Shown here: one piece after another, positions 1 to 57,756 of the stretch
How the letters are laid out: every line of letters begins with the position of its first letter
How positions within the stretch are numbered: the first letter of the stretch is position 1
Origin: Escherichia phage vB_EcoS_PJ16
Reading direction: 5' to 3' (one strand)
Sequence record: OQ955832.1
DNA: 57,756 bases
Translations under genes and position numbers: made by a program
The notes under the pieces: model-generated
Database searches by the model: none
What the model was told of the DNA's origin: nothing
What the model saw: the letters and a program-made list of their open reading frames with translations, nothing else

Positions 1-206
1 TATCTTTTTATAGATAACATAGAAAACATAGATATAAAGAAGAAGTAGTATAGAAAGATAGAGATAGTACATATAGTGTATTAGCTGTAAATAGAGCTAA
101 AATAAAAGTCTGGGGGATACCTATTGTAATCTATGTTTTTATGCAAGTCTTTGAAATCATTGTGATTATGTGTTACGTATTTATGTATGTGATCGAAAAT
201 TAGTGC
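1..206. repeat. AT-rich non-coding repeat region (right half of hub A, continuing from the window end)
   Basis: No RBS-preceded ORF; short direct repeats (catagat, GCAYGTTGTG); positions 1-80 are homologous to 17749-17830. Confidence 0.6.
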
Positions 207-323
207 ATGTTGTGCACTAACTGTAAACTTAATACTAACATTGTATTAACTGTAAAACAGGGCGTGTGGACAACCCGTGGGTATCTGTGGGAAACTAATT
301 TAAAATTTATGGGAGACAAATTT

Positions 324-959
324 ATGAAAATTTCAGACCGGGCTAAAAGGGCTGCTCTGGAGTTAACAACCGATCAACTCCGTTTTGCTAACCTGTGGTT
401 AGATCGTGTCAATAACGGCTTCAGCAACGCTCAGTGCGTCTTACACGCTTATCCGGGACATAAAGACCCTGACGCAGCTAAAGTCACCGCACACCGCCTC
501 CTGTCGAATACGAAGGTGTTGAACTATCTGGACGCGATGGGAAGTCATGCGCTTGAATCTGTCGGGGAATCGTTAACGAGTCGTGTCGAGTGGTGGAAGC
601 GCGCGGCAAGCACGGCTGAAGAATTACTGGAACCGTACTGTCAGCGCGTCATCGTCCCTGGTGAAGACGATACAGAAGCGAAACACCTGTGGGTGAACAG
701 TACCGACGATATCCCCAGCCATCTGCAACAGTACGTAGTTTGCTACAAACGTTACATGCTGGGTGGATACATTCTGGTGACACGTGAACTGTTCGACCCG
801 AAAACTCGTGCAAAAGCGTCTGAACAACTGGATAAGATCACCGGGAACAGTATCGACCGTGTGGAATTGTCTGGCGTGGTTGGTAACGTGGTTCAGAGTG
901 TCCCTGAAGGTGCAACCATCGACGACATTGCGCAACTGTACCAGAAGGCGCTCAAATAA
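324..959 (+). CDS. Terminase small subunit (putative)
   Basis: Track ORF 207-959 trimmed to ATG 324 (GGGAGA 7 nt upstream); N-terminal ELTTDQLRFANLWL resembles TerS DNA-binding segment; terminator follows. Confidence 0.5.
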   Translation: MKISDRAKRAALELTTDQLRFANLWLDRVNNGFSNAQCVLHAYPGHKDPDAAKVTAHRLLSNTKVLNYLDAMGSHALESVGESLTSRVEWWKRAASTAEELLEPYCQRVIVPGEDDTEAKHLWVNSTDDIPSHLQQYVVCYKRYMLGGYILVTRELFDPKTRAKASEQLDKITGNSIDRVELSGVVGNVVQSVPEGATIDDIAQLYQKALK

Positions 960-1050: not shown

Positions 1051-1077
1051 AGCCCGGTTAATTCCGGGCTTTTTTTA
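1051..1077 (+). terminator. Rho-independent terminator
   Basis: Stem agcccgg/ccgggct, loop ttaatt, then T7 run. Confidence 0.7.
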
Positions 1078-4441: not shown

Positions 4442-4741
4442 TATAACTACCGCCTGAATAGTGATGTTTACCACACAACGATCTACTTACACGTTTCACA
4501 CTTGGCCCCTTCAGCCTTGTCTATTCCACACTGCAAATATTCATTTTCTTTTTGTTCTAATGTTTTTCCACGACACAAACCAACAGTGGTACTTTCTGGT
4601 GTCATTTTATATTTCTGATAGTTTGCTTCCAGTTGTCGAACACGGTGATAGTGTGCCGGATACATTGTGCGTAACATGTGGATTTCACCACCTGTCACCC
4701 GTGGTAAACTGTATAGAACAGTTACAAACGGACCGATAACC

Positions 4742-6505
4742 ATGAATAAGTTTACTGGAAATATTCATAATTACCCGCGCTGGCGTGATGCCTACGCAAA
4801 TGACGAACGTATCTGGCGAAAAGGTCAGCCACGACCAGATTACAAACAGTGTTACATTGACCGCATCAACCTGTTAAACCGTATGCGCACGGATCGGGCA
4901 ATTGTCCCGGTATTGAAAAAGTATTACGAAACAAACCCGGTAGCATTCATTCTCGACTGGGCGTTTACTTATGACCCGCGTAACGTCGGTACTGAGTACC
5001 CGCCTAACATGCCTTTCTGCCTTTTCGAACGTCAGATTGACATGGTTCAGTTTGTTTATGAAGCGCTTGAAGACAAAGAGAAAGGGCTTTGGGAAAAATC
5101 GCGAGACTATGGTGCGACCTGGGTAGCCTGTGGTTTGTCCGTGTGGGCGTGGCTGTATCGTCCCGGTTCTTCAGTTGGCTGGGGATCACGTAAAGAGCAG
5201 CTTGTTGATAAACTGGGCGACCCGGATAGTATTTTTGAAAAGATTCGCCAGATTATCCGCGCATTACCACCGGAATTACGTCCTGTTGGTCTGCGTGAAA
5301 AAGACCATCTGGTTTACATGAAATGTATCAACCCTGAAAACGGTGCAACAATTACTGGTGAAGCTGGCGATAACATCGGTCGTGGTGGTCGTAAATCTGT
5401 TTACTTTCTCGATGAAGCGGCACACGTAGATCGTCCTGAACTGATCGAAGCGTCGTTGTCAGCTAACACCAACGTCCGTATTGACATCAGTTCAGTTAAT
5501 GGCGTTGGTAACGTTTTTTATCGTAACCGTAAAGCGGGTCTGGAATGGGAACCGGGTAAGAAATTACCCCGTGGTAAATTGCGTGTCATGGTTCTGGACT
5601 GGCGTGATCACCCGGCTAAAGACGACGAATGGTATAAACGAGAAAAACAATCGTTCGCTGAAAAAGGTTTACAGCATATTTTTGCACAGGAAGTTGACCG
5701 CGATTATGCCGCTGCTGTTCAGGGTGTACTGATTAAAGCTGAATGGGTACGCGCTGCTTTTGACGCGTTCCGTGACACAGAATGGCGCAAAGCTAATGGA
5801 CTACTTACACCAACAGGTCAACGTATCGCCGGACAGGATGCCGCAGACGGTGGTGAAGACGCAAGCGCACTGGTAATTGCTCACGGTGTATTCCTGACAC
5901 ATCTGCAACTTGACCACAGGGGCGCTGAACTGGCTGCACCAGGAATGTTGACGATGGCTAATATGCTGGGTGTTGATGAATACTGGTACGAAGTTAACGG
6001 TGTTGGTACAGGCGTTAAAGTAGCGGCAAATGACCGAAAAGATACTTTACGCTTCCGTGTGCGTCCGTGGTTACCGAATGGAAAAGTTGTGGATCCGGGC
6101 GGTGATATTATCGGTGGTACGAAACCAGGTGACAAAGACCGTAAATCAAACAAAGATTATTTCTCAAATTATAAAGCACAGGCATCGTGGGCGTTACGCT
6201 TGCGTTGTCAGCGAATTTATAAATGGTATGTGGAAGGTCAACCACAGGATCCAGACGAAATCATTCTGATTGATCCATCACTGGAAAATGCACAACGGTT
6301 AGAAGCTGAGTTAAGCCAGCCAACGTATACCAGTAACGGTGCCGGGAAGATTGTGATCGACAAGAAACCAAACGGTAGTAAGTCACCAAACTTTTTCGAT
6401 GCTGCGGTTATTGCACTATCACCAAAACGTACCGAATTCGTTGAAGAACCGTTTACTGGCGGTGTGAATCCTGTTGGTACTCCTGAATACGGTGACATTT
6501 TTTAA
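4742..6505 (+). CDS. Terminase large subunit
   Basis: Track ORF 4667-6505, likely start ATG 4742; size and ATPase/nuclease-like organisation (DEAAH-like FLDEAAH) typical of TerL. Confidence 0.8.
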   Translation: MNKFTGNIHNYPRWRDAYANDERIWRKGQPRPDYKQCYIDRINLLNRMRTDRAIVPVLKKYYETNPVAFILDWAFTYDPRNVGTEYPPNMPFCLFERQIDMVQFVYEALEDKEKGLWEKSRDYGATWVACGLSVWAWLYRPGSSVGWGSRKEQLVDKLGDPDSIFEKIRQIIRALPPELRPVGLREKDHLVYMKCINPENGATITGEAGDNIGRGGRKSVYFLDEAAHVDRPELIEASLSANTNVRIDISSVNGVGNVFYRNRKAGLEWEPGKKLPRGKLRVMVLDWRDHPAKDDEWYKREKQSFAEKGLQHIFAQEVDRDYAAAVQGVLIKAEWVRAAFDAFRDTEWRKANGLLTPTGQRIAGQDAADGGEDASALVIAHGVFLTHLQLDHRGAELAAPGMLTMANMLGVDEYWYEVNGVGTGVKVAANDRKDTLRFRVRPWLPNGKVVDPGGDIIGGTKPGDKDRKSNKDYFSNYKAQASWALRLRCQRIYKWYVEGQPQDPDEIILIDPSLENAQRLEAELSQPTYTSNGAGKIVIDKKPNGSKSPNFFDAAVIALSPKRTEFVEEPFTGGVNPVGTPEYGDIF

Positions 6506-17171: not shown

Positions 17172-17545
17172 TACGCGCACCTCGATAGTCGTCTTAATTT
17201 AACGATCAACCTTGTGACTTTACTCCAGTCAGATTCAGTAAAGTCGTCCACATCTTTAGCCCATAACTCATTAACATGTCGTGGGTTATATGGTTCTTTC
17301 TTAACTGGCTATTTCCGTTTCTTTTTACCCATAGGTTATAACCCAAGTAAAAGTTTAAGCGCACATTTACGAGCATCGTTGACCATTTTTAATAATTCTT
17401 GTGTATCAATGGTGCGATCAGCGTGTTTAATCAGTTCATTCATACTATTAACCTCTTACTATTCCTACGACCACAGGTGCTGCGAAAATCATGAAAGCCA
17501 GTATGTAGTAAATCATCGCATGTCTCCTTTTTCTTCCTGTTAACC

Positions 17546-17592
17546 ACAGGGTAGTTGTGTCGGTGTAATTTGTCAAGAATTATTTTAAAGAT
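17546..17592 (-). promoter_or_regulatory. sigma70-type promoter with UP element (conserved family), left arm of divergent pair
   Basis: -35 TTGACA (17571-17576), 17-bp spacer, TACCCT; inverted copy of promoter at 17898. Confidence 0.55.
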
Positions 17593-17880
17593 ACAGCTAA
17601 TACAGAACGTGTACTAACTGCACATATTTCTACATAGGTTTCATGATTTTGAGTTGCAGCTAATACAGAACGTGTATTAGTAGATCATAGATTCATAGAT
17701 TTCGTCATGTTTATTTTTTAACCAACCTCTCTCTATCTTATTCTTTTTATTATCTTTTTATAATAAAAAGATAATAAACATAATAAACATAGATAAATAG
17801 AAGAGTAGTATAAGTAGTATAAGTTGCTGCAAGTAGGAGAGGTTTAAAAGGTATAGGGAGTCGCATACTTCCCATGAATC
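17581..17880. repeat. AT-rich non-coding repeat hub B
   Basis: No ORFs; direct repeats cagctaatacagaacgtgta x2, catagat repeats; homologous to window-end/start region. Confidence 0.65.
17746..17778. repeat. Perfect palindrome (16-bp arms, 1-nt centre)
   Basis: tttttattatctttttat a ataaaaagataataaaa read directly; core TTATCT...AGATAA also present at window junction. Confidence 0.8.
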
Positions 17881-17928
17881 TATACGTAAAATAATTCTTG
17901 ACGGATTACACCGACACAAATACCCTGT
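17880..17928 (+). promoter_or_regulatory. sigma70-type promoter with UP element (conserved family), right arm of divergent pair
   Basis: TAAAATAATTCTTGACGGATTACACC; -35 17898-17903, TACCCT at 17921-17926. Confidence 0.55.
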
Positions 17929-17956
17929 GGTTAAGAAAACAAGAAGGGTTGAATGT

Positions 17957-18304
17957 ATGAATCCGAACATCAGAGTTGCTACAGACGAATTCATTCGTCG
18001 CGCCCGTAAAGTTCACGGTGATCGTTACGACTACTCATTCAGCATTGTTGAAGATAGTTCCAGCACAGTGGTTATTATTGACTGTGAAACTAACACAGTG
18101 TTTTTCCAGGTTGTCGCTGAACATCTGGACGGTGTTGAACCAGTAACGACTGCTGTTGAACCAGTAACGACTGCTGTTGAATCGATCAAGAATCTTTCTG
18201 AGACATTCGGTAACGTTGCAAACAGCGTGTATCACCAGTGCAATTATTCATCTGAAATGTTAGAATTTAGTCATGTTGAAACAATACGAGGACAATCCCC
18301 GTGA
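17957..18304 (+). CDS. Hypothetical protein with degenerate zinc-ribbon-like N-domain and VEPVTTA repeat
   Basis: Track ORF 17927-18304 trimmed to ATG 17957; DEFIRRARKVHGDRYDYS matches N-domain of 26624-27235 protein but lacks Cys ligands. Confidence 0.45.
   Translation: MNPNIRVATDEFIRRARKVHGDRYDYSFSIVEDSSSTVVIIDCETNTVFFQVVAEHLDGVEPVTTAVEPVTTAVESIKNLSETFGNVANSVYHQCNYSSEMLEFSHVETIRGQSP
18134..18175 (+). repeat. 21-bp tandem repeat x2 (in-frame, VEPVTTA)
   Basis: gttgaaccagtaacgactgct repeated exactly. Confidence 0.8.
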
Positions 18305-44676: not shown

Positions 44677-47355
44677 GTGAGTCAACAACCACTTCGTTAT
44701 TACCAACAAGATGCAGTTAACAACGTGCGCCAGGCATGGTCGAACGGTGCTAATGACGTGATTCTTGTGCTTCCCACTGGCTGTCATGCTAAAGACAGTG
44801 AAATTCTTATGTACAACGGTGATGTTATAAAAGTACAGGATGTTTTACCTGGTGATTTATTGATGGGTCGTGATTCATTACCACGAACCGTGTTAGCGTT
44901 AGCTCGTGGCAGAGAAGAAATGTTTGAAATCATCCCAGTCAAAGGGTCACCTTTCCGTGTAAATAAAAATCACATATTACATTTGATACATACTGAATCA
45001 AAAGAAGAAATAGACATTTCTGTAAGTGATTACTTACAGAAATCAAATTATTTCAAACATTGCCACAAGTTGCTTCGTACGGGGGTTGATTTCGAATATC
45101 GCGAACCACCGACTTTAGACCCGTGGTTTGCCGGGATTATGATCGGTGATGGTAGTTACAAATCAGGTACACCACGTCTGACAAATGCAGACTCAAGTAT
45201 TTTAGAAAAGGCTACTTTTTACGCAAACCTTTTTGGATGTGTCTGCAAAGATGTAAAAGGTAACAACTGTGTTACACGTTATTTCGGTTATCCCGGGTCA
45301 TCGCGTTCGGTTAGTAACCCGTTGAGCGATGCGATGAAATCTGATGGATTGTGGGGGAAAATCGCACATGAAAAATCAATACCTGATGTGTATAAAAAAG
45401 GAAGCAGAAACACACGTTTAAACGTTCTGGCAGGATTAATTGATAGCGACGGATATATTTCACATAAGGGCGTTGATTTTGTGTCCAAATCACAGCAGTT
45501 AGCCGCTGATTTAGTGTTCGTTGCAAGAAGCCTGGGGAAAGCCGCGTATTACAAAGCCTGTGTTAAATCATGTCAAACGGGTAATGCAAACATTTACTAC
45601 AGAGTGAGTATTAGTGGCGATTTAAGCGATGTACCATTCGTTAGAAAACATGGTGATTTAACGAGAAAGCAGAAGAAAAATCATTTAGTAACGGGCTTTT
45701 CTGTTCGGTCTGTTGGTGAAGATAATTTTTATGGTTTTATGGTTAACGGTGACAATCTTTATCTTACGTCAGACTTCATCATCCATCATAACAGTGGTAA
45801 AACACGTACTATGGCTGAACTACTAAAATCCGACGGTGTAAAAGTCATCCAGGCACACCGCAAAGAACTAGTTAGTCAAATCGCAATGGCTGTTGCTCGC
45901 CAGGGGTTAGCACACAGATTTATAGCGCAAAAAGATACTGTTAAGTTTGCAACTAATCAGCAGATGAAAACGCTTGGTTACAGTACCTATTCCCCCGGTG
46001 CTGACATCGTTATTACCAGTTCACAAACGTTAAGAACAAAACAGTACGAACGATGGTACAACGACGTGTCTCTTGTATTCAGCGACGAAGCGCATCACCT
46101 GGTGCGTGGCACACAGTGGGGAGACTGCCGGGAAAAATTCCCTAACGCTAAAGGTCTGGGTGTTACAGCCACACCGATCCGTGCTGACGGTAAAGGCCTG
46201 GGTCGTCATGCATCAGGTTACGCAGATCAGATGATCATTGGTCCGTCAATGCGTGAATTAATCAGTCAACAACACCTGGCTGATTATCGTCTGATCATGG
46301 CTGAAACAGACCTGGAATTAACCGCAGAAATGATTTCTCATACGACGGGTGATTACAAACCATCTGCGTTAAAAAAAGCGATGGAAGATTCAAACATTGT
46401 TGGTGATACCGTTAGTACGTGGAAAACGTATGCAGATGGTTTACTCACTGTTGTGTTTACGTGTGATGTGGATTCTGCTGAAGCACTTGCAAAAGAATTT
46501 CGCGATGCTGGCATTCCTGCAGAGGCGATCAGTTCACGAAACAGTAATCAGGAACGAGCGGATATTCTGGAACGTTTTGAACGACGTAAAACACTCGTGC
46601 TATGTAACAACGATTTATTCGGTGAAGGATACGACTGTCCGGCAATGGAATGTGCAGTAATGGATCGCCCCACAGAATCTTACTCTTTGTTTGTACAACA
46701 AATGGGTCGACCATTGCGTTTCAAACCCGGTAAAAAAGCACTGATTATTGATAAAGTCGGTAATGTTCGTCGATTTCTGGCCCGTGGTTTTCCACTTCCT
46801 GATCAGCATTACAACTGGTCTTTAGATGACCGTGACCGTCGTTCATCTAACAGCAGTGGGAACAGTAATACAACATGTACAAACAAGGGTGATCCTGATA
46901 ATGGTATTCCACCGTGTCTGAAGCCTTATCCGTCTGGTCTTCCGTGCTGCCCGTATTGTGGTCATGTTCCTGAAAAAGCCGAACGCTCAGGCCCGGATCG
47001 TGTAGAAGGTAATTTACGTGAACTGACACCTGAAGAACTGGAAGAATTACGCCGGGCAGTGGTGATAATCGACCGTGACCCTGTTGCAGTAAAAGAACAA
47101 ATGTTAAACGCGGGTGCACCCCCTGTTGCAGCTTACAGTGCAATGAAAAACATTCAGGCAATGAACGATGCACAGCGTAAGTTACGCAGCATGATCACCA
47201 CATGGGCAGGTATTCAGCGTGATAAAGGTATACCCGTTGATGACGCTTACAAGATGTTTTACAGGGTGTTTGGTGTTGATGTACTTAGTGCACAGGGCTT
47301 ACGTACTCGTGAAGCTAATGAACTCGCCGCAAGGGTTGCAAGTTCATTAATCTGA
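44677..47355 (+). CDS. SF2 DEAH-type DNA helicase, intein-containing precursor
   Basis: GTG start with AAGGA RBS; Walker A split as LPTG / SGKT by intein; DEAHH, TATP, QQMGRPLR motifs; C-terminal CxxC zinc ribbon. Confidence 0.85.
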   Translation: MSQQPLRYYQQDAVNNVRQAWSNGANDVILVLPTGCHAKDSEILMYNGDVIKVQDVLPGDLLMGRDSLPRTVLALARGREEMFEIIPVKGSPFRVNKNHILHLIHTESKEEIDISVSDYLQKSNYFKHCHKLLRTGVDFEYREPPTLDPWFAGIMIGDGSYKSGTPRLTNADSSILEKATFYANLFGCVCKDVKGNNCVTRYFGYPGSSRSVSNPLSDAMKSDGLWGKIAHEKSIPDVYKKGSRNTRLNVLAGLIDSDGYISHKGVDFVSKSQQLAADLVFVARSLGKAAYYKACVKSCQTGNANIYYRVSISGDLSDVPFVRKHGDLTRKQKKNHLVTGFSVRSVGEDNFYGFMVNGDNLYLTSDFIIHHNSGKTRTMAELLKSDGVKVIQAHRKELVSQIAMAVARQGLAHRFIAQKDTVKFATNQQMKTLGYSTYSPGADIVITSSQTLRTKQYERWYNDVSLVFSDEAHHLVRGTQWGDCREKFPNAKGLGVTATPIRADGKGLGRHASGYADQMIIGPSMRELISQQHLADYRLIMAETDLELTAEMISHTTGDYKPSALKKAMEDSNIVGDTVSTWKTYADGLLTVVFTCDVDSAEALAKEFRDAGIPAEAISSRNSNQERADILERFERRKTLVLCNNDLFGEGYDCPAMECAVMDRPTESYSLFVQQMGRPLRFKPGKKALIIDKVGNVRRFLARGFPLPDQHYNWSLDDRDRRSSNSSGNSNTTCTNKGDPDNGIPPCLKPYPSGLPCCPYCGHVPEKAERSGPDRVEGNLRELTPEELEELRRAVVIIDRDPVAVKEQMLNAGAPPVAAYSAMKNIQAMNDAQRKLRSMITTWAGIQRDKGIPVDDAYKMFYRVFGVDVLSAQGLRTREANELAARVASSLI
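44782..45792 (+). mobile_element. Intein with double-LAGLIDADG homing endonuclease in helicase P-loop
   Basis: Begins with Cys after LPTG, ends HN before Ser; LAGLIDSDG and FAGIMIGDG motifs; 337 codons in frame. Confidence 0.8.
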
Positions 47356-52368: not shown

Positions 52369-53136
52369 ATGGCTAACATTAACTCCCTTCGCAAGCTGTC
52401 TGATACCGATAAAACCAACGTAAAACGTGGTAATGCGTATCGTATTGATCCGCGTATTATCAAGATTCGTCCAGGACATAACCCACGCGGTGTGTTTACC
52501 GACAACTACTGGGAAACTGAAGCAGCACTGGCACACATTGAAAACTTTCGTCAGGCTTATACTAACGGCGATTTCGTTCCACCCATCGTGGTACAGGTTG
52601 TTGACGGTGTTCCGTATGTCCAGGATGGTGAGCATCGTTTACGTGGTGTATTGGCAGCTATTGACGCCGGGACGCCGATTCTGACAGTAGACGTTGTTGA
52701 ATCGTCCGGTGACGAACTACAACAGACCCTGACACTGTTAAAAGGTAATGAAGGTAAACCGTGGTCCCCTGTTGAACGTGCTGTTATTTACGGTCGTTTC
52801 CGTTCATATGGCATGAGTGTTGAGCAGATCGCTACACAGGTCGGTAAAACCGTTCAGCACGTTTACGAACAACTGAATATTCTTGATATGCCGCTGGAAC
52901 TTAAACGTCGTATTCAGAACGGCGAAATCAGCGCGTCAGCAGCCATTCGCCAGTTTAAAGCAGGTGATAAAGAACCAGTAGTAACGCGTCGTCCGCCTGC
53001 TAAACTGGTACGGTCTGCAGTGGAAGCAATCCGTGGTGAATGGTCTGTAACCCGTTCGGAAGGTGGTAAAGTCCTGGTTGAACTTACCGCTGAACAGTTT
53101 GAAGCGTTAAAAGCACTGAAGGAGCACCAGTTATGA
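52369..53136 (+). CDS. ParB-like nuclease domain protein
   Basis: KIRPGHNPRG and DGEHRLRGVLAA resemble ParB/sulfiredoxin N-domain motifs. Confidence 0.65.
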   Translation: MANINSLRKLSDTDKTNVKRGNAYRIDPRIIKIRPGHNPRGVFTDNYWETEAALAHIENFRQAYTNGDFVPPIVVQVVDGVPYVQDGEHRLRGVLAAIDAGTPILTVDVVESSGDELQQTLTLLKGNEGKPWSPVERAVIYGRFRSYGMSVEQIATQVGKTVQHVYEQLNILDMPLELKRRIQNGEISASAAIRQFKAGDKEPVVTRRPPAKLVRSAVEAIRGEWSVTRSEGGKVLVELTAEQFEALKALKEHQL

Positions 53137-53312
53137 AAAACCGTAAAGCAAAGATTCTGTTAGTTCGTAGAAACGCTCCTGGCGTCTGGCAGTGGGTGAG
53201 ACTCAGCAACCGACGGATGGGGTTGATGAAATATTACGGGATGATGGATTGCAGTTTTTGCAAAAAAACCCAGCGCGGCGCAAAACCGCTGGAAAAACCA
53301 CTTTCGCATTAA
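53133..53312 (+). CDS. Hypothetical small basic protein, tandem paralog 1 (59 aa)
   Basis: Not in track; ATGA-coupled to ParB-like gene; NRKAKILLVRR...WVRLSNRRM shared with next gene. Confidence 0.35.
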   Translation: MKNRKAKILLVRRNAPGVWQWVRLSNRRMGLMKYYGMMDCSFCKKTQRGAKPLEKPLSH

Positions 53313-53323
53313 AGGAGAGTGAT

Positions 53324-53521
53324 ATGGCAACCAACAATCGTAAAGCCAAGATGCTTATTTCCCGTGTATACAGCCGTTGCTATCCCAGCCAGTGGTTGAG
53401 AGTTAGCAATCGCCGTATGGTGTTGTACTTATATTCTGGAATTGCCAGAGATGGAATCAAAGATAAGCGTAGCGCGGCGCAAAACCGCTGGAAAAACCAC
53501 TTGCGTACTAAAGGAGAGTGA
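53324..53521 (+). CDS. Hypothetical small basic protein, tandem paralog 2 (65 aa)
   Basis: Track ORF 53192-53521 trimmed to ATG 53324 after AGGAGAG RBS. Confidence 0.4.
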   Translation: MATNNRKAKMLISRVYSRCYPSQWLRVSNRRMVLYLYSGIARDGIKDKRSAAQNRWKNHLRTKGE

Positions 53522-53522
53522 T

Positions 53523-53786
53523 ATGGCAACTTTAACAAAAAAAGAACGGGCATGGTTGAATGAATTACAGGACGTTCTTGATCGCTGCCCATCACCGAAA
53601 AAAATTGGTTTTTACACCATTGGCGATAAAAGCATTTACCTGTATGACCTACGCCGCATGGATGAAATCATGGAGGCTCTTGATAATCGTTCGTCGGTGG
53701 ATTGGTGTGTTGCTGTCCATGATATGAATGCCGGATTTGATGAAAAGATTTTGTTCCCCTCATCAGTTGAAAGCACTGCGGGTTAA
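53523..53786 (+). CDS. Hypothetical protein (87 aa)
   Basis: Track ORF 53442-53786 trimmed to ATG 53523 after repeated RBS element. Confidence 0.45.
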   Translation: MATLTKKERAWLNELQDVLDRCPSPKKIGFYTIGDKSIYLYDLRRMDEIMEALDNRSSVDWCVAVHDMNAGFDEKILFPSSVESTAG

Positions 53787-56640: not shown

Positions 56641-56672
56641 CTAAAAAGCGGGGCTAATTACCCCGCTATCTT
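56641..56672. terminator. Bidirectional terminator hairpin
   Basis: Stem agcgggg/ccccgct; T-run on minus strand side after the 56672-57475 gene. Confidence 0.6.
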
Positions 56673-57475
56673 TATTGACCCATCATATCTTTATACATCA
56701 TCAAAACAACATCATCCGGCATATTATCTACATCGCAATGCGGGTTATGTGATAACGCATACAGTCTGATTTTCTCCTTCAAATCGCTGACATCGACTAC
56801 AGGTGCTTCCACTCGTGTTACAGGTGCTTCCACTCGTGATACAGATGCTTCCACTCGTGCTACAGGTGGTTCCACTCGTGCTACAGGTGGTTCCACTCGT
56901 GCTACAGGTGGTTCACAAACCATCACGTTAAACGGTGTTCCGGTGCCTTCGTATTTTTCAAGCAAATCGACCATTACGTTTACACATTCCGGGATCCAGC
57001 CCCGGCGCAAACCATTCTGAATCCAACTGTCAGTAATTGTGTGTTCGTTTAAATTCCTGCGTAACACGTATCTTGCACATTCAAAATTACCGCACATCGC
57101 CTCAAACCGTGTCCACACGTCGTGACCGTGAACAGCTTCCAGGATCTGTGAATCAACGTATCTGACACGTTGCCAGTAGTTATTAGCAAAACGCCTGTGT
57201 GGTAATTTCTGACGCAGTTCGGTAACCGGTATTGTGTGTTTAAGAACAATGTTTTCGTCAGAATGTTGTACTGTCAAGGGTGACAGTGTGAAGTCAGTAA
57301 TCTCTTCAAGAATAATACTGATCGTTTCATATTTAGGATGAAACCTACCGCTTAACCATTGATTGTAACGACCAACAGTTACCTTAACACCTCGACGATT
57401 AAGGTATTCAACAGCATTTTGTACCCCGCCTTTTAAATCTATCAATTCGTCTAAAAGGTTCTTTTTCATTATCAC
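56672..57475 (-). CDS. Hypothetical protein with VEPPVAR heptad tandem repeats (267 aa)
   Basis: Strong RBS AGGAGGGG; 21-bp in-frame repeats near C-terminus. Confidence 0.55.
   Translation of the reverse strand: MIMKKNLLDELIDLKGGVQNAVEYLNRRGVKVTVGRYNQWLSGRFHPKYETISIILEEITDFTLSPLTVQHSDENIVLKHTIPVTELRQKLPHRRFANNYWQRVRYVDSQILEAVHGHDVWTRFEAMCGNFECARYVLRRNLNEHTITDSWIQNGLRRGWIPECVNVMVDLLEKYEGTGTPFNVMVCEPPVARVEPPVARVEPPVARVEASVSRVEAPVTRVEAPVVDVSDLKEKIRLYALSHNPHCDVDNMPDDVVLMMYKDMMGQ
56799..56916 (-). repeat. 21-bp tandem repeat, about 5.5 copies (in-frame)
   Basis: acaggtgcttccactcgtgtt and variants, read directly. Confidence 0.85.
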
Positions 57476-57756
57476 CCCTCCTTATTCAACCACGGGTAAA
57501 GCATAACTCGTGTTGGCAGCTAGTGCAAGATGTGCTTTATATGTTAGTGTATTTACACCTAATGCATGTTGTGCTTTAGCAGCTAGTGCAAGATGCACGT
57601 TGTGTATTAGCTGTTAGTGCACGTTGTGTATCTATGTTGGTACAGCTAATGCACGTTGTGAATTATATAGTGCATATAGTGCATTAAAGTTATACTTAAC
57701 ATAGATTTCGTCATGTTTATTTTTTGATCAACCCCTCATTATCTTTTTATAGATAA
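57476..57756. repeat. AT-rich non-coding repeat region (left half of hub A)
   Basis: Direct repeats GCACGTTGTG x3 plus variants, agctagtgcaagatg x2; 57700-57756 homologous to 17690-17760. Confidence 0.65.
57498..57530 (-). promoter_or_regulatory. Putative sigma70 promoter for 56672-57475 gene
   Basis: Minus strand TTGCAC-17 bp-TATGCT followed by leader ACCCGTGGTT similar to hub B promoters. Confidence 0.4.

What the first reader, a model, noticed from the sequence alone, without database searches (positions are those of the whole stretch)
1..206. Second copy of the repeat hub and a 17-bp direct repeat at both window ends
The first 17 nt (tatctttttatagataa) are identical to the last 17 nt of the window. 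The regions either side of the junction are homologous to hub B (17690-17830). This fits a circular or circularly permuted assembly linearised inside the hub, or a short genuine terminal repeat. TerS begins immediately to the right (324), so the hub may also carry the packaging initiation site.
Basis: seen in the sequence. Interest (0 to 1): 0.5.

Follow-up and report, generated by a model that had tools for sequence, protein, structure and literature searches.

The report
Circular phage genome cut inside control region
The matching 17 bases at the two ends most likely show only that a circular phage genome assembly was cut open inside its main gene-control region, which is real, is partly duplicated elsewhere in the genome, and probably holds binding sites for a neighbouring phage regulator protein.

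Summary
Bases 1-17 equal bases 57740-57756, the 17-mer occurs nowhere else, and the sequence around the junction is homologous to 17694-17836 (69% identity, E 3e-14).

The window is a complete genome of a 9NA/Sasha-like siphovirus. When the ends are joined, the junction is collinear with nine relatives in which it lies inside the record or contig. The terminase matches a phage group shown experimentally to package by the pac-headful route. So the window is a circularly closing assembly, not a genome with fixed ends.

One point stays open. All relatives carry an extra 17 nt exactly at the join. The window's intergenic region is 593 nt with one copy of the 17-mer and 610 nt, as in relatives, with two. 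Only reads or PCR can settle whether a tandem duplication is real.

The "hub" is the divergent control region between terS and a leftward gene. That gene's confidently modelled N-terminal domain resembles Cro/CI helix-turn-helix domains. Nine to eleven 19-bp palindromes lie only in the two hubs. The repeat type changes between lineages together with that N-terminal domain, and not with TerS. This argues against the palindromes being TerS pac sites.

Hub B is a duplication found only in the E. coli-phage clade. The pac location remains untested here. Interest is low to moderate.

The parts
1..17 (.). Left copy of the terminal 17-mer TATCTTTTTATAGATAA
   Evidence: Identical to 57740-57756 and unique in the window.
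57740..57756 (.). Right copy of the terminal 17-mer
   Evidence: In all relatives this 17-mer occurs once at this place, preceded by an imperfect 17-nt unit TATCTTATTCTTTTTAT (11 of 17 matches) that the window lacks.
57470..57756 (.). Left half of hub A, the intergenic region between the gp84-like gene and terS. It holds six palindromic sites and the left part of the AT-rich core.
18..323 (.). Right half of hub A. It holds the right part of the AT-rich core, three palindromic sites and the conserved pre-terS motif (268-295).
57700..57756 (.). Hub A core, left part, homologous to hub B. It includes the 26-nt exact repeat 57700-57725.
18..94 (.). Hub A core, right part, homologous to hub B. It is 77% AT and rich in ATAGA repeats, partly at 9-nt spacing.
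57521..57539 (.). Palindromic site TAGTGCAAGATGTGCTTTA (1 mismatch to TARTRCA-N5-TGYAYTA). It overlaps the -35 of the candidate leftward promoter.
57560..57578 (.). Palindromic site TAATGCATGTTGTGCTTTA
57591..57609 (.). Weaker site AGATGCACGTTGTGTATTA (2 mismatches)
57615..57633 (.). Weaker site TAGTGCACGTTGTGTATCT (2 mismatches)
57647..57665 (.). Palindromic site TAATGCACGTTGTGAATTA
57668..57686 (.). Palindromic site TAGTGCATATAGTGCATTA (exact match)
65..83 (.). Palindromic site TAGTACATATAGTGTATTA (exact match)
201..219 (.). Palindromic site TAGTGCATGTTGTGCACTA (exact match, perfect 7/7 dyad)
230..248 (.). Palindromic site TAATACTAACATTGTATTA (1 mismatch)
56672..57469 (-). gp84-like gene (265 aa). 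Residues 1-63 (nt 57281-57469) form a Cro/CI-like four-helix domain, followed by a disordered linker, a helical middle domain, PVARVE tandem repeats (nt 56789-56914) and a C-terminal helical part. It is the proposed binder of the palindromes.
57500..57528 (-). Candidate sigma-70 promoter for the gp84-like gene (TTGCAC-17-TATGCT; TATGAT in Bas82)
   Evidence: Read from the sequence. It was not listed by the consensus scan over this region.
56647..56667 (.). Bidirectional terminator-like hairpin ending the single-gene leftward unit
324..959 (+). terS (small terminase, 211 aa)
1051..1076 (+). Hairpin plus T-run after terS (AGCCCGG-TTAATT-CCGGGCT-TTTTTT). terS therefore looks like a single-gene rightward unit.
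   Evidence: Read from the sequence. It was not flagged by the scan.
17694..17836 (.). Hub B core, the second copy of the AT-rich core. It is the most AT-rich 100 nt of the genome (82%).
17598..17616 (.). Hub B palindromic site TAATACAGAACGTGTACTA
17661..17679 (.). Hub B palindromic site TAATACAGAACGTGTATTA
17540..17587 (-). Left arm of the 48-nt inverted repeat flanking hub B. It contains TTGACA-17-TACCCT (17548-17576) reading leftward.
17887..17934 (+). Right arm of the 48-nt inverted repeat. It contains TTGACG-17-TACCCT (17898-17926) reading rightward towards the gene at 17957.
4667..6505 (+). terL (large terminase), used here to infer the packaging class

Best explanation
The window is a complete, circularly closing assembly of a 9NA/Sasha-like siphovirus that packages DNA by the pac-site headful route, so its virion DNA has no fixed ends. 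The 17-nt identity at the two ends is most likely closure overlap, and the replicating genome would then carry the 17-mer once (57,739 bp).

The cut falls in the AT-rich centre of the roughly 600-bp divergent control region (hub A). This region lies between a single-gene leftward unit (the gp84-like gene) and the single-gene rightward terS unit.

Hub A consists of an AT-rich, ATAGA-repeat core flanked on both sides by arrays of 19-bp dyad-symmetric sites, TA[AG]T[AG]CA-N5-TG[CT]A[CT]TA. By inference, these are operators bound by dimers of the adjacent gene's Cro/CI-like N-terminal helix-turn-helix domain. One site overlaps the -35 of that gene's own candidate promoter, which would allow autoregulation.

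A segment of about 300 bp (two sites plus the core) was duplicated in the E. coli-infecting clade. It sits between two inverted copies of a promoter-like element inside the virion-gene region (hub B), which would place a second pair of divergent units under the same control.

Shown here: the end identity, circular collinearity, the hub A/hub B homology, confinement of the sites to the hubs, the change of repeat type together with the N-terminal domain and not with TerS, and the helix-turn-helix-like fold. Inferred: actual binding, the regulatory outcome, and the single copy of the 17-mer.
For: End identity and uniqueness of the 17-mer.

Genome identity: best matches are AVIO78A, PDP46, Bas82, Sashavirus and 9NA.

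Collinearity: the one-copy junction aligns in a single piece with Bas82 52940-53729 (a circular record) and runs across 536P12. terS and the gp84-like gene sit on one contig with hub A between them in four ENA contigs and one JGI contig.

[quoted passage not shown] Sergei is presumed permuted (PMC8273493). The TerL nuclease domain is nearest to Sf6 gp2 (E about 1e-10), and TerL is 92-99.7% identical within the group.

Sites: 9 matches with at most 1 mismatch against 0.22 expected, all in hub A (7) or hub B (2). 7-N5-7 dyads number 8 against 1.33 in shuffles.

Covariation with the gp84-like N-domain: it is identical in window, Bas82 and Sergei, which share the site type. In BDX09P1 only the first ~75 residues differ, and the adjacent left array is of another type: TAATMCTNNNNTAG, 6 matches, all in its hub A. 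9NA has its own type: TGTTANNNKNAAC, 12 matches, all in its hub, ten of them forming five inverted pairs with the same 5-nt spacer. The Klebsiella phage has another.

TerS is about 90% identical across all of these. The window's TerS N-terminus is closer to 9NA and Klebsiella than to Bas82 and Sergei, which is the opposite of the site pattern.

Fold: the N-domain model has pLDDT 91.7 and pTM 0.78. Its Foldseek list is almost entirely Cro/CI/XRE helix-turn-helix domains at TM 0.56-0.67 and rmsd 1.8-2.9 A.

Hub B is present only in the five E. coli-clade relatives. In Sasha and Sergei the hub B query matches only their hub A, at 84% identity.
Against: With one copy of the 17-mer, the window's intergenic region is 593 nt, against 610-611 nt in the seven relatives measured. 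The missing 17 nt abut the cut, and the gap length equals the overlap length. That is a double coincidence under the simple overlap model.

From my own knowledge, 17 is not a usual k-mer size for common assemblers.

No Foldseek match is individually significant (best E 0.59), and Pfam finds nothing.

The covariation is confounded by linkage. The N-domain coding sequence lies next to the left array, so a single recombination event would swap both.

BDX09P1 keeps window-type sites on the terS side of hub A and in its hub B despite a different N-domain. Either specificity overlaps or another protein binds them.

No sigma-70-like promoter for terS was found.

Arrays of this size next to an AT-rich segment also suit a replication origin.
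Confidence: 0.55

Rival explanations
1. The genome really carries two perfect tandem copies of the 17-mer at this spot, and the contig was broken or opened between them. The second unit of an ancestral imperfect 17-nt tandem repeat would have replaced the first.
For: Relatives have two 17-nt units in register here: TATCTTATTCTTTTTAT followed by TATCTTTTTATAGATAA, with 11 of 17 positions matching. Keeping both window copies gives a 610-nt intergenic region, the same as relatives at 610-611 nt. This would explain why the overlap length equals the apparent deletion length and why the break sits exactly there. The spot is indel-prone: the window's hub B has an 11-nt inverted-duplication insertion at the homologous position.
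Against: It needs at least two mutational steps, against a single 17-nt deletion for the one-copy reading. With usual k-mer sizes an assembler would read straight through a 34-nt tandem repeat. No public contig shows either form of the junction.
Confidence: 0.25
2. The 17 nt mark true physical ends of virion DNA. They would be either a 17-nt cohesive end filled in during library preparation or a very short direct terminal repeat, so the phage would not be a headful packager.
For: The repeat is exact and lies upstream of terS, where cos and pac sites often lie. A filled-in 5' overhang would appear as a short terminal direct repeat (my own knowledge of library preparation).
Against: [quoted passage not shown] The nearest solved terminases are of the headful type, Sf6 gp2. 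Relatives were assembled as circles or opened at other nearby positions with no overlap.
Confidence: 0.05
3. Hub A is, or contains, the pac site. TerS would bind repeated elements there and the first headful cut would be made in or near the AT-rich core, as at SPP1 pacL/pacR or the P1 pac repeats.
For: Hub A lies directly upstream of terS. Repeats flank an AT-rich centre. The core and the pre-terS motif (268-295) are conserved across the family, as is TerS. From my recollection of the abstract of Zeng et al. 2019, 9NA initiation cuts are scattered over about 170 bp, but I do not know their position.
Against: The repeat type changes between lineages while TerS stays about 90% identical, and the window's TerS N-terminal variant does not track the site type. 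The shared core exists twice in this genome, which would give two pac sites 17.7 kb apart. In P22, pac lies inside terS (my own knowledge).
Confidence: 0.12
4. Hub A is the replication origin. The repeat arrays would be iterons for the multi-domain gp84-like protein acting as an initiator, as lambda O acts at ori, and the AT-rich core would be the unwinding element. Hub B would then be a second origin or origin remnant.
For: Nine to eleven sites flank the AT-rich core, and the two cores rank first and third among the most AT-rich 100-nt stretches of the genome. The adjacent gene encodes a DNA-binding domain, a disordered linker and further domains. It is a core gene found only in this phage group and has no other assigned role. 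Type-specific swapping of the DNA-binding domain together with its sites is also seen for lambdoid O proteins and ori (my own knowledge).
Against: There is no similarity to any known initiator. GC skew shows no switch at the hubs beyond what gene orientation explains. BDX09P1 has different site types on the two sides of the core, which is awkward for a single initiator. The sites lie at promoters, as operators do.
Confidence: 0.2

Closest known systems
Circularly closing assemblies of pac-type headful phages, specifically Salmonella phage 9NA and the Sasha/Sergei/Solent group (Casjens et al. 2014, PMC4153490; Zeng et al. 2019, not readable here)
   Same: Same gene order: gp84-like gene, large intergenic region, terS. 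TerS is about 90% identical across the group and TerL 92-99.7%. 9NA assembled as a circle. Other labs also opened their records inside this same intergenic region.
   Different: The other records checked (9NA, Sasha, Sergei, BDX09P1) have no terminal overlap. The window has 17 nt of overlap and lacks a 17-nt unit that all relatives keep.
Cro/CI-type repressor and operator modules of lambdoid and P2-like phages, where type-specific DNA-binding domains are exchanged together with their operators
   Same: A small helix-turn-helix domain of Cro/CI-like fold is encoded next to multiple dyad-symmetric sites at divergent promoters. The binding domain and the adjacent sites are exchanged together between relatives.
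   Different: The phage group is virulent, and no lysogeny genes were reported for 9NA. The protein has 265 aa with extra domains and a variable tandem-repeat linker. There are 9-11 sites rather than 3+3, and they flank an AT-rich repeat core that is itself duplicated at a second locus. Binding has not been tested.
Lambda ori/O-type iteron origins and iteron-plasmid origins
   Same: There is an array of repeated sites with dyad symmetry next to an AT-rich segment. The gene for a modular DNA-binding protein lies alongside, and its specificity domain varies with the repeats.
   Different: There is no sequence or fold similarity to O or Rep proteins. The sites lie in an intergenic promoter region and on both sides of the AT-rich core.
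Repeat-containing pac sites (SPP1 pacL/pacC/pacR, P1 pac)
   Same: Repeats flank a central region immediately upstream of terS.
   Different: The repeats do not covary with TerS. The core is not unique in the genome. No cleavage data are available here.

Membership tests
Circularly permuted pac-headful genome whose assembly closes into a circle (9NA-like phages) | The two ends of the linear record are contiguous in the genome | tested here: met
   The joined ends align in one piece with Bas82, a circular record, and run across 536P12. Four ENA contigs and one JGI contig also carry the junction internally.
Circularly permuted pac-headful genome whose assembly closes into a circle (9NA-like phages) | Large terminase of the headful class, orthologous to that of an experimentally characterised headful phage | tested here: met
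   The nearest PDB sequences are Sf6 gp2 and 8dkr, E about 1e-10. TerL is 92-99.7% identical to TerL of SP-062, Carvaje, Bas82 and PDP46. The 9NA experiment is described.
Circularly permuted pac-headful genome whose assembly closes into a circle (9NA-like phages) | [quoted passage not shown] | not testable with these tools
   This needs virion DNA or raw reads. It is reported for 9NA only.
Circularly permuted pac-headful genome whose assembly closes into a circle (9NA-like phages) | The terminal overlap is present once in the genome (reads span a single copy) | tested here: inconclusive
   No reads are available. No public contig shows either form of the junction, and the window's source was not found. 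One copy gives a 593-nt intergenic region and two copies 610 nt, against 610-611 nt in relatives.
Fixed-end genomes (short direct terminal repeat or cohesive ends) | Terminase related to those of DTR or cos packagers | tested here: not met
   Sf6-type headful relatives and 9NA-group orthologues.
Fixed-end genomes (short direct terminal repeat or cohesive ends) | Relatives share the same ends | tested here: not met
   Relatives are circular, or are opened at other positions with no overlap.
Cro/CI (XRE-like) repressor-operator module | DNA-binding domain with the helix-turn-helix fold | tested here: inconclusive
   The model is confident (pLDDT 91.7). The top hits are almost all Cro/CI/XRE domains at TM 0.56-0.67, but the best E is 0.59 and there is no Pfam match.
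Cro/CI (XRE-like) repressor-operator module | Several dyad-symmetric sites clustered at the promoters next to the regulator gene | tested here: met
   Nine sites against 0.22 expected, all in the two hubs. One overlaps the -35 of the candidate gp84-like promoter.
Cro/CI (XRE-like) repressor-operator module | Site sequence changes together with the DNA-binding domain across relatives | tested here: met
   Two caveats apply: the domain and left array are physically linked, and BDX09P1 keeps window-type sites in hub B and on the terS side.
Cro/CI (XRE-like) repressor-operator module | Demonstrated binding and repression | not testable with these tools
   Needs EMSA or footprinting and transcript mapping.
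TerS-bound pac site | The recognition sequence covaries with, or is as conserved as, the TerS DNA-binding domain | tested here: not met
   For the palindromes: TerS is about 90% identical across phages with unrelated repeat types, and the TerS N-terminal variants do not follow the site type. This was not tested for the conserved core or the pre-terS motif.
TerS-bound pac site | A single site per genome | tested here: not met
   This applies to the shared core only, which is present at hub A and hub B.
TerS-bound pac site | Mapped initiation cleavage | not testable with these tools
   No reads are available, and the paper that maps 9NA pac is not held.
Iteron-type replication origin | Repeat array adjacent to an AT-rich, easily melted segment | tested here: met
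Iteron-type replication origin | Adjacent protein related to known initiators | tested here: not met
   No Pfam, PDB-sequence or fold match to initiators.
Iteron-type replication origin | Initiation mapped to the site | not testable with these tools
   Needs replication-intermediate or marker-frequency data.

The most novel reading that the evidence does not exclude
A group of virulent siphoviruses carries an immunity-like specificity module. It would consist of a modular regulator with a swappable Cro/CI-like N-terminal domain and matching arrays of dyad sites around a conserved AT-rich repeat core. The site-plus-core cassette would be portable, having been copied into the virion-gene region in the E. 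coli clade. The same core might also serve as origin or packaging start, and the 17-nt unit at its centre might vary in copy number between phages.
Probability: 0.3. Interest if true: 0.5.

Novelty: new member of a known kind. Interest (0 to 1): 0.3.

Why it matters
For annotation, the record should be treated as circular or permuted, with a length of 57,739 or 57,756 bp depending on one PCR, and not as a genome with terminal repeats.

[quoted passage not shown] This analysis gives a concrete, testable candidate for their central control region, for the protein that reads it (a core gene of unknown function), and for natural specificity variants (window/Sasha type, BDX09P1 type, 9NA type, Klebsiella type) that could serve as ready-made swap experiments.

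It also narrows the search for pac. The palindromes are unlikely to be the TerS target.

Tried and rejected
- **Junction searches.** I searched all three public contig collections for either junction form (gap of 0 or 17) and for the window's unique hub B insertion, and found nothing. An exact-product lookup of the window's gp84-like protein also found nothing. The one-copy versus two-copy question therefore could not be settled.
- **Zeng et al. 2019.** The paper on 9NA pac mapping is not held under its PMC id or DOI. Citing papers give no coordinates.
- **GC skew.** It shows no origin-like switch beyond gene orientation.
- **Rfam.** A scan of an uninterrupted hub A (Bas82) and hub B found no family; the only match had E 0.84.
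- **Small ORFs in the core.** The reading frames differ between hub A and hub B (22 versus 7 codons when read from the sequence), so this idea was rejected.
- **Consensus promoter scan of hub A.** It gave no more sites than shuffles and no terS promoter.
- **Dyads as a family-wide feature.** 7-N5-7 dyads are significantly enriched only in the window and Bas82. 9NA has longer 13-N5-13 pairs, and the Klebsiella phage has direct repeats.
- **ACCC(N)GTGG as a promoter family.** The motif is enriched (17 against 2.8 expected), but most copies are inside genes with unrelated upstream sequence, so this was rejected.
- **Full-length gp84-like model.** Its fold search gave nothing significant. The PDB sequence profile search gave only chance-level hits.
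- **Host-factor boxes.** I compared the sites by eye with LexA, CRP, TyrR, TrpR and DnaA consensus sequences from memory. None fits.

Full report
**1. Observation**

The first 17 nt of the window (TATCTTTTTATAGATAA) are identical to the last 17 nt. No longer prefix equals a suffix, and the 17-mer occurs nowhere else on either strand. No sub-word of 13 nt or more recurs elsewhere. The probability of this word at a given position is about 2.6e-10, so the identity is not chance.

A sensitive self-comparison of the circularised intergenic region against the window confirms the second part of the observation. Window 57700-57756 plus 18-94 is homologous to 17694-17836, with 69% identity over 143 columns and E 3e-14. 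This includes a 26-nt exact repeat. The cut lies in the middle of the shared segment.

TerS is at 324-959.

**2. What the window is**

The window is a whole genome of a 9NA/Sasha-like siphovirus. Its best matches are the E. coli phages AVIO78A, PDP46 and KarinMuster_Bas82, then Sashavirus, and 9NA at greater distance.

When the ends are joined with one copy of the 17-mer, the junction is collinear in a single piece with Bas82 (a circular record, 52940-53729) and with 536P12. Four ENA metagenome contigs and one JGI contig carry terS, the same intergenic region and the leftward gene on one contig.

9NA assembled as a circle. [quoted passage not shown] Sergei is presumed permuted (PMC8273493).

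The window's TerL is 92-99.7% identical to TerL across the group, and its nuclease domain is nearest to the Sf6 gp2-type headful terminase among solved structures.

The window is therefore a circularly closing assembly of a headful phage. Fixed ends, whether cos or a short terminal repeat, are unlikely.

**3. The unresolved detail at the join**

All nine relatives read ...CTC TC TATCTTATTCTTTTTAT TATCTTTTTATAGATAA CATAG.... That is an imperfect tandem pair of 17-nt units with 11 of 17 positions matching. The window reads ...CTC AT TATCTTTTTATAGATAA and then ends.

With one copy of the 17-mer the window's intergenic region is 593 nt, 17 nt shorter than relatives. With both copies it is 610 nt, against 610-611 nt in the seven relatives measured.

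Under the plain overlap model, the apparent deletion abuts the cut and has the same length as the overlap. That is an uncomfortable coincidence. Under the tandem-duplication model, two mutational steps are needed, and a normal assembler would have read through the repeat.

The spot is demonstrably unstable. At the homologous position the window's hub B has an 11-nt insertion that is an inverted copy of the adjacent sequence and is absent from relatives' hub B.

I could not find the window's source or any other assembly of the same phage. I put about 0.55-0.6 on a single copy, 0.25 on a real duplication and 0.05 on physical ends.

The position of the cut is itself uninformative. 9NA was opened inside the same conserved element (CCTTAT|CTTTTAAC). 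Sasha, Sergei, AVIO78A and PDP46 were opened 48 nt to the right, and Solent about 33 nt to the left. None of the records checked for it (9NA, Sasha, Sergei, BDX09P1) has a terminal overlap. Opening these genomes in the middle of the large intergenic region upstream of terS appears to be a habit.

**4. Anatomy of hub A**

The intergenic region spans 57470-57756 plus 18-323.

- **Left flank.** A single gene on the minus strand (56672-57469, 265 aa) ends at a bidirectional hairpin at 56647-56667.
- **Right flank.** terS is followed by a hairpin and T-run at 1051-1076, and then by genes on the other strand.
- **Core.** The centre is AT-rich (77%, third highest in the genome; hub B's core is first at 82%). 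It is rich in ATAGA, with 11 of the genome's 32 copies in the two cores, partly at 9-nt spacing.
- **Palindromes.** A 19-bp palindrome, TA[AG]T[AG]CA-N5-TG[CT]A[CT]TA, lies on both sides of the core. There are 9 matches with at most one mismatch against 0.22 expected. Seven are in hub A, two are in hub B, and none is elsewhere. Two weaker copies in hub A bring the total there to nine.
- **Promoter overlap.** The leftmost site overlaps the -35 of a candidate promoter for the leftward gene, TTGCAC-17-TATGCT (TATGAT in Bas82), as read from the sequence.

**5. Which protein reads the palindromes**

TerS is about 90% identical in window, Bas82, Sergei, BDX09P1, 9NA and a Klebsiella relative. In residues 14-55 the window's TerS is closer to 9NA and Klebsiella than to Bas82 and Sergei. 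The repeat types follow the opposite pattern:

| Phage | Repeat type | Evidence |
|---|---|---|
| Window, Bas82, Sergei, Sasha | Share one palindrome type | |
| 9NA | TGTTANNNKNAAC: 12 matches, all in its hub, ten forming five inverted pairs with the same 5-nt spacer | |
| Klebsiella phage VLCpiS10a | TGGTARGNKGAAAC: 4 direct copies, all in its hub | |
| BDX09P1 | TAATMCTNNNNTAG: 6 matches, all in its hub A | |

The leftward gene's product follows the sites. Its first ~70 residues are identical in window, Bas82 and Sergei. BDX09P1 differs from them only in the first ~75 residues, while the rest of the protein is nearly identical. 9NA, SP069 and the Klebsiella phage each have different N-termini.

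This protein is a core gene found only in this phage group. It occurs in 22 phage records and 11 protein clusters, belongs to PHROG 25538 (unknown function), and has no Pfam match.

Modelled alone, residues 1-63 give a confident four-helix domain (pLDDT 91.7, pTM 0.78). Its structural neighbours are almost all Cro/CI/XRE helix-turn-helix domains: the DdrO N-terminal domain, Xfaso-1 Cro, P2 C, N15 Cro on its operator, Aca7, Aca2, TP901-1 CI and ImmR. They match at TM 0.56-0.67 and rmsd 1.8-2.9 A, but no single match is significant; the best E is 0.59.

The rest of the protein is a disordered linker, a helical middle domain (duplicated in the Klebsiella phages), disordered PVARVE repeats that vary in number between phages, and a helical C-terminus.

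**6. Interpretation of hub function**

The simplest reading is a regulator and its operators at divergent promoters, exchanged as a unit between relatives, as happens with lambdoid immunity regions.

Three caveats apply:
- The N-domain coding sequence is next to the left array, so linkage alone could co-transfer them.
- BDX09P1 keeps window-type sites on the terS side of hub A and in its hub B.
- No binding data exist.

A replication origin with the same protein as initiator fits the site number and the AT-rich core about as well. Nothing in sequence or fold supports it, however, and GC skew is uninformative.

The pac idea is weakened for the palindromes, because they do not covary with TerS. 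It is also weakened for the shared core, because the core occurs twice in this genome. It is not excluded for other parts of hub A, such as the family-wide motif GGACAAnCCGTGnnTATCTGTGnGAAAC at 268-295.

**7. Hub B**

Hub B is found only in the five E. coli-clade relatives. In Sasha and Sergei the hub B query matches only their hub A, at 84% identity. It is therefore a lineage-specific copy of two sites plus the core.

It sits between the arms of a 48-nt inverted repeat (94% complementary). Each arm carries TTGAC[AG]-17-TACCCT pointing outward, towards the flanking genes.

**8. Comparison with the known, and verdict**

The end repeat is ordinary: a closing assembly of a permuted phage genome, with one open question that a PCR can settle.

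The hub is a real regulatory element of a familiar general kind. It combines a helix-turn-helix regulator with dyad sites, in a phage group whose control circuitry has not been described in the papers I could read.

I rate it a new member of a known kind, with interest of about 0.3.

Noticed in passing
window 17760-17771 (hub B): Hub B has an 11-12-nt insertion (ATAATAAAAAGA) that is absent from hub B of BDX09P1, Bas82 and AVIO78A. It is a perfect inverted copy of 17742-17753 and creates a 24-nt near-perfect hairpin. It lies at the position homologous to the 17-nt gap in hub A, so the centre of the core seems prone to template-switch indels.
   Followed up: partly
window 17540-17587 and 17887-17934: A 48-nt inverted repeat (94% complementary) brackets hub B. 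Each arm carries an outward-facing TTGAC[AG]-17-TACCCT promoter-like element just upstream of the flanking genes.
   Followed up: partly
window, genome-wide (for example 273, 2577, 4697, 17544, 17922, 50907, 57490): ACCC(N)GTGG occurs 17 times against 2.8 expected (0 of 100 shuffles reach 17), and most copies are followed by T. Copies sit just upstream of the genes flanking both hubs, but most are inside genes with unrelated context. The function is unknown.
   Followed up: partly
window 56789-56914 (minus strand, gp84-like residues 186-227): There are tandem 7-residue repeats (EPPVARV and variants) predicted to be disordered. Their number varies widely between relatives, from about 3 in BDX09P1 to about 10 in Sergei and none in 9NA. 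Sergei and Sasha annotate this as a direct tandem repeat region.
   Followed up: partly
L017 1-700 (JGI metagenome contig Ga0564369_00234): This is a fold-back arrangement. The first 15 nt of terS are fused in frame to codon 8 of the gp84-like gene (protein P0001, 316 aa). An inverted copy of the gp84-like 5' end sits at the contig end. It is either an assembly chimera or a rearranged genome.
   Followed up: partly
window 363-488 (TerS residues 14-55): The TerS N-terminal region is mosaic. The window and BDX09P1 carry the 9NA/Klebsiella variant (TTDQLRF...HKDPDAAKVT), whereas Bas82 and Sergei carry another (SPEQLKF...HTSDAAAATT). If pac lies inside the 5' part of terS, this swap would carry it along.
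   Followed up: no
L015 1134-1343 (Salmonella phage SP069): SP069 encodes a stand-alone 69-aa copy of the 9NA-type N-terminal domain immediately upstream of its own full-length gp84-like gene, which has a different N-domain. By eye, its hub contains both 9NA-like and Klebsiella-like repeat types.
   Followed up: no
L013 825-1372 and L009 (Sashavirus BDX09P1): BDX09P1 carries two site types in one genome: its own type to the left of the hub A core, and window-type sites to the right of the core and in hub B. What binds the window-type sites there is unexplained.
   Followed up: partly
window 45547-45565 and 45595-45613: Two weak matches to the palindrome (2 mismatches each) lie 48 nt apart, outside the hubs. 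This could be a third, degenerate binding locus or chance.
   Followed up: no
window 268-295: The motif GGACAAcCCGTGggTATCTGTGgGAAAC just upstream of the terS ribosome-binding site is conserved in 9NA and the Klebsiella phage, although the surrounding hub sequence has diverged. No sigma-70-like promoter was found for terS, so this may be a late-promoter or other control element.
   Followed up: no
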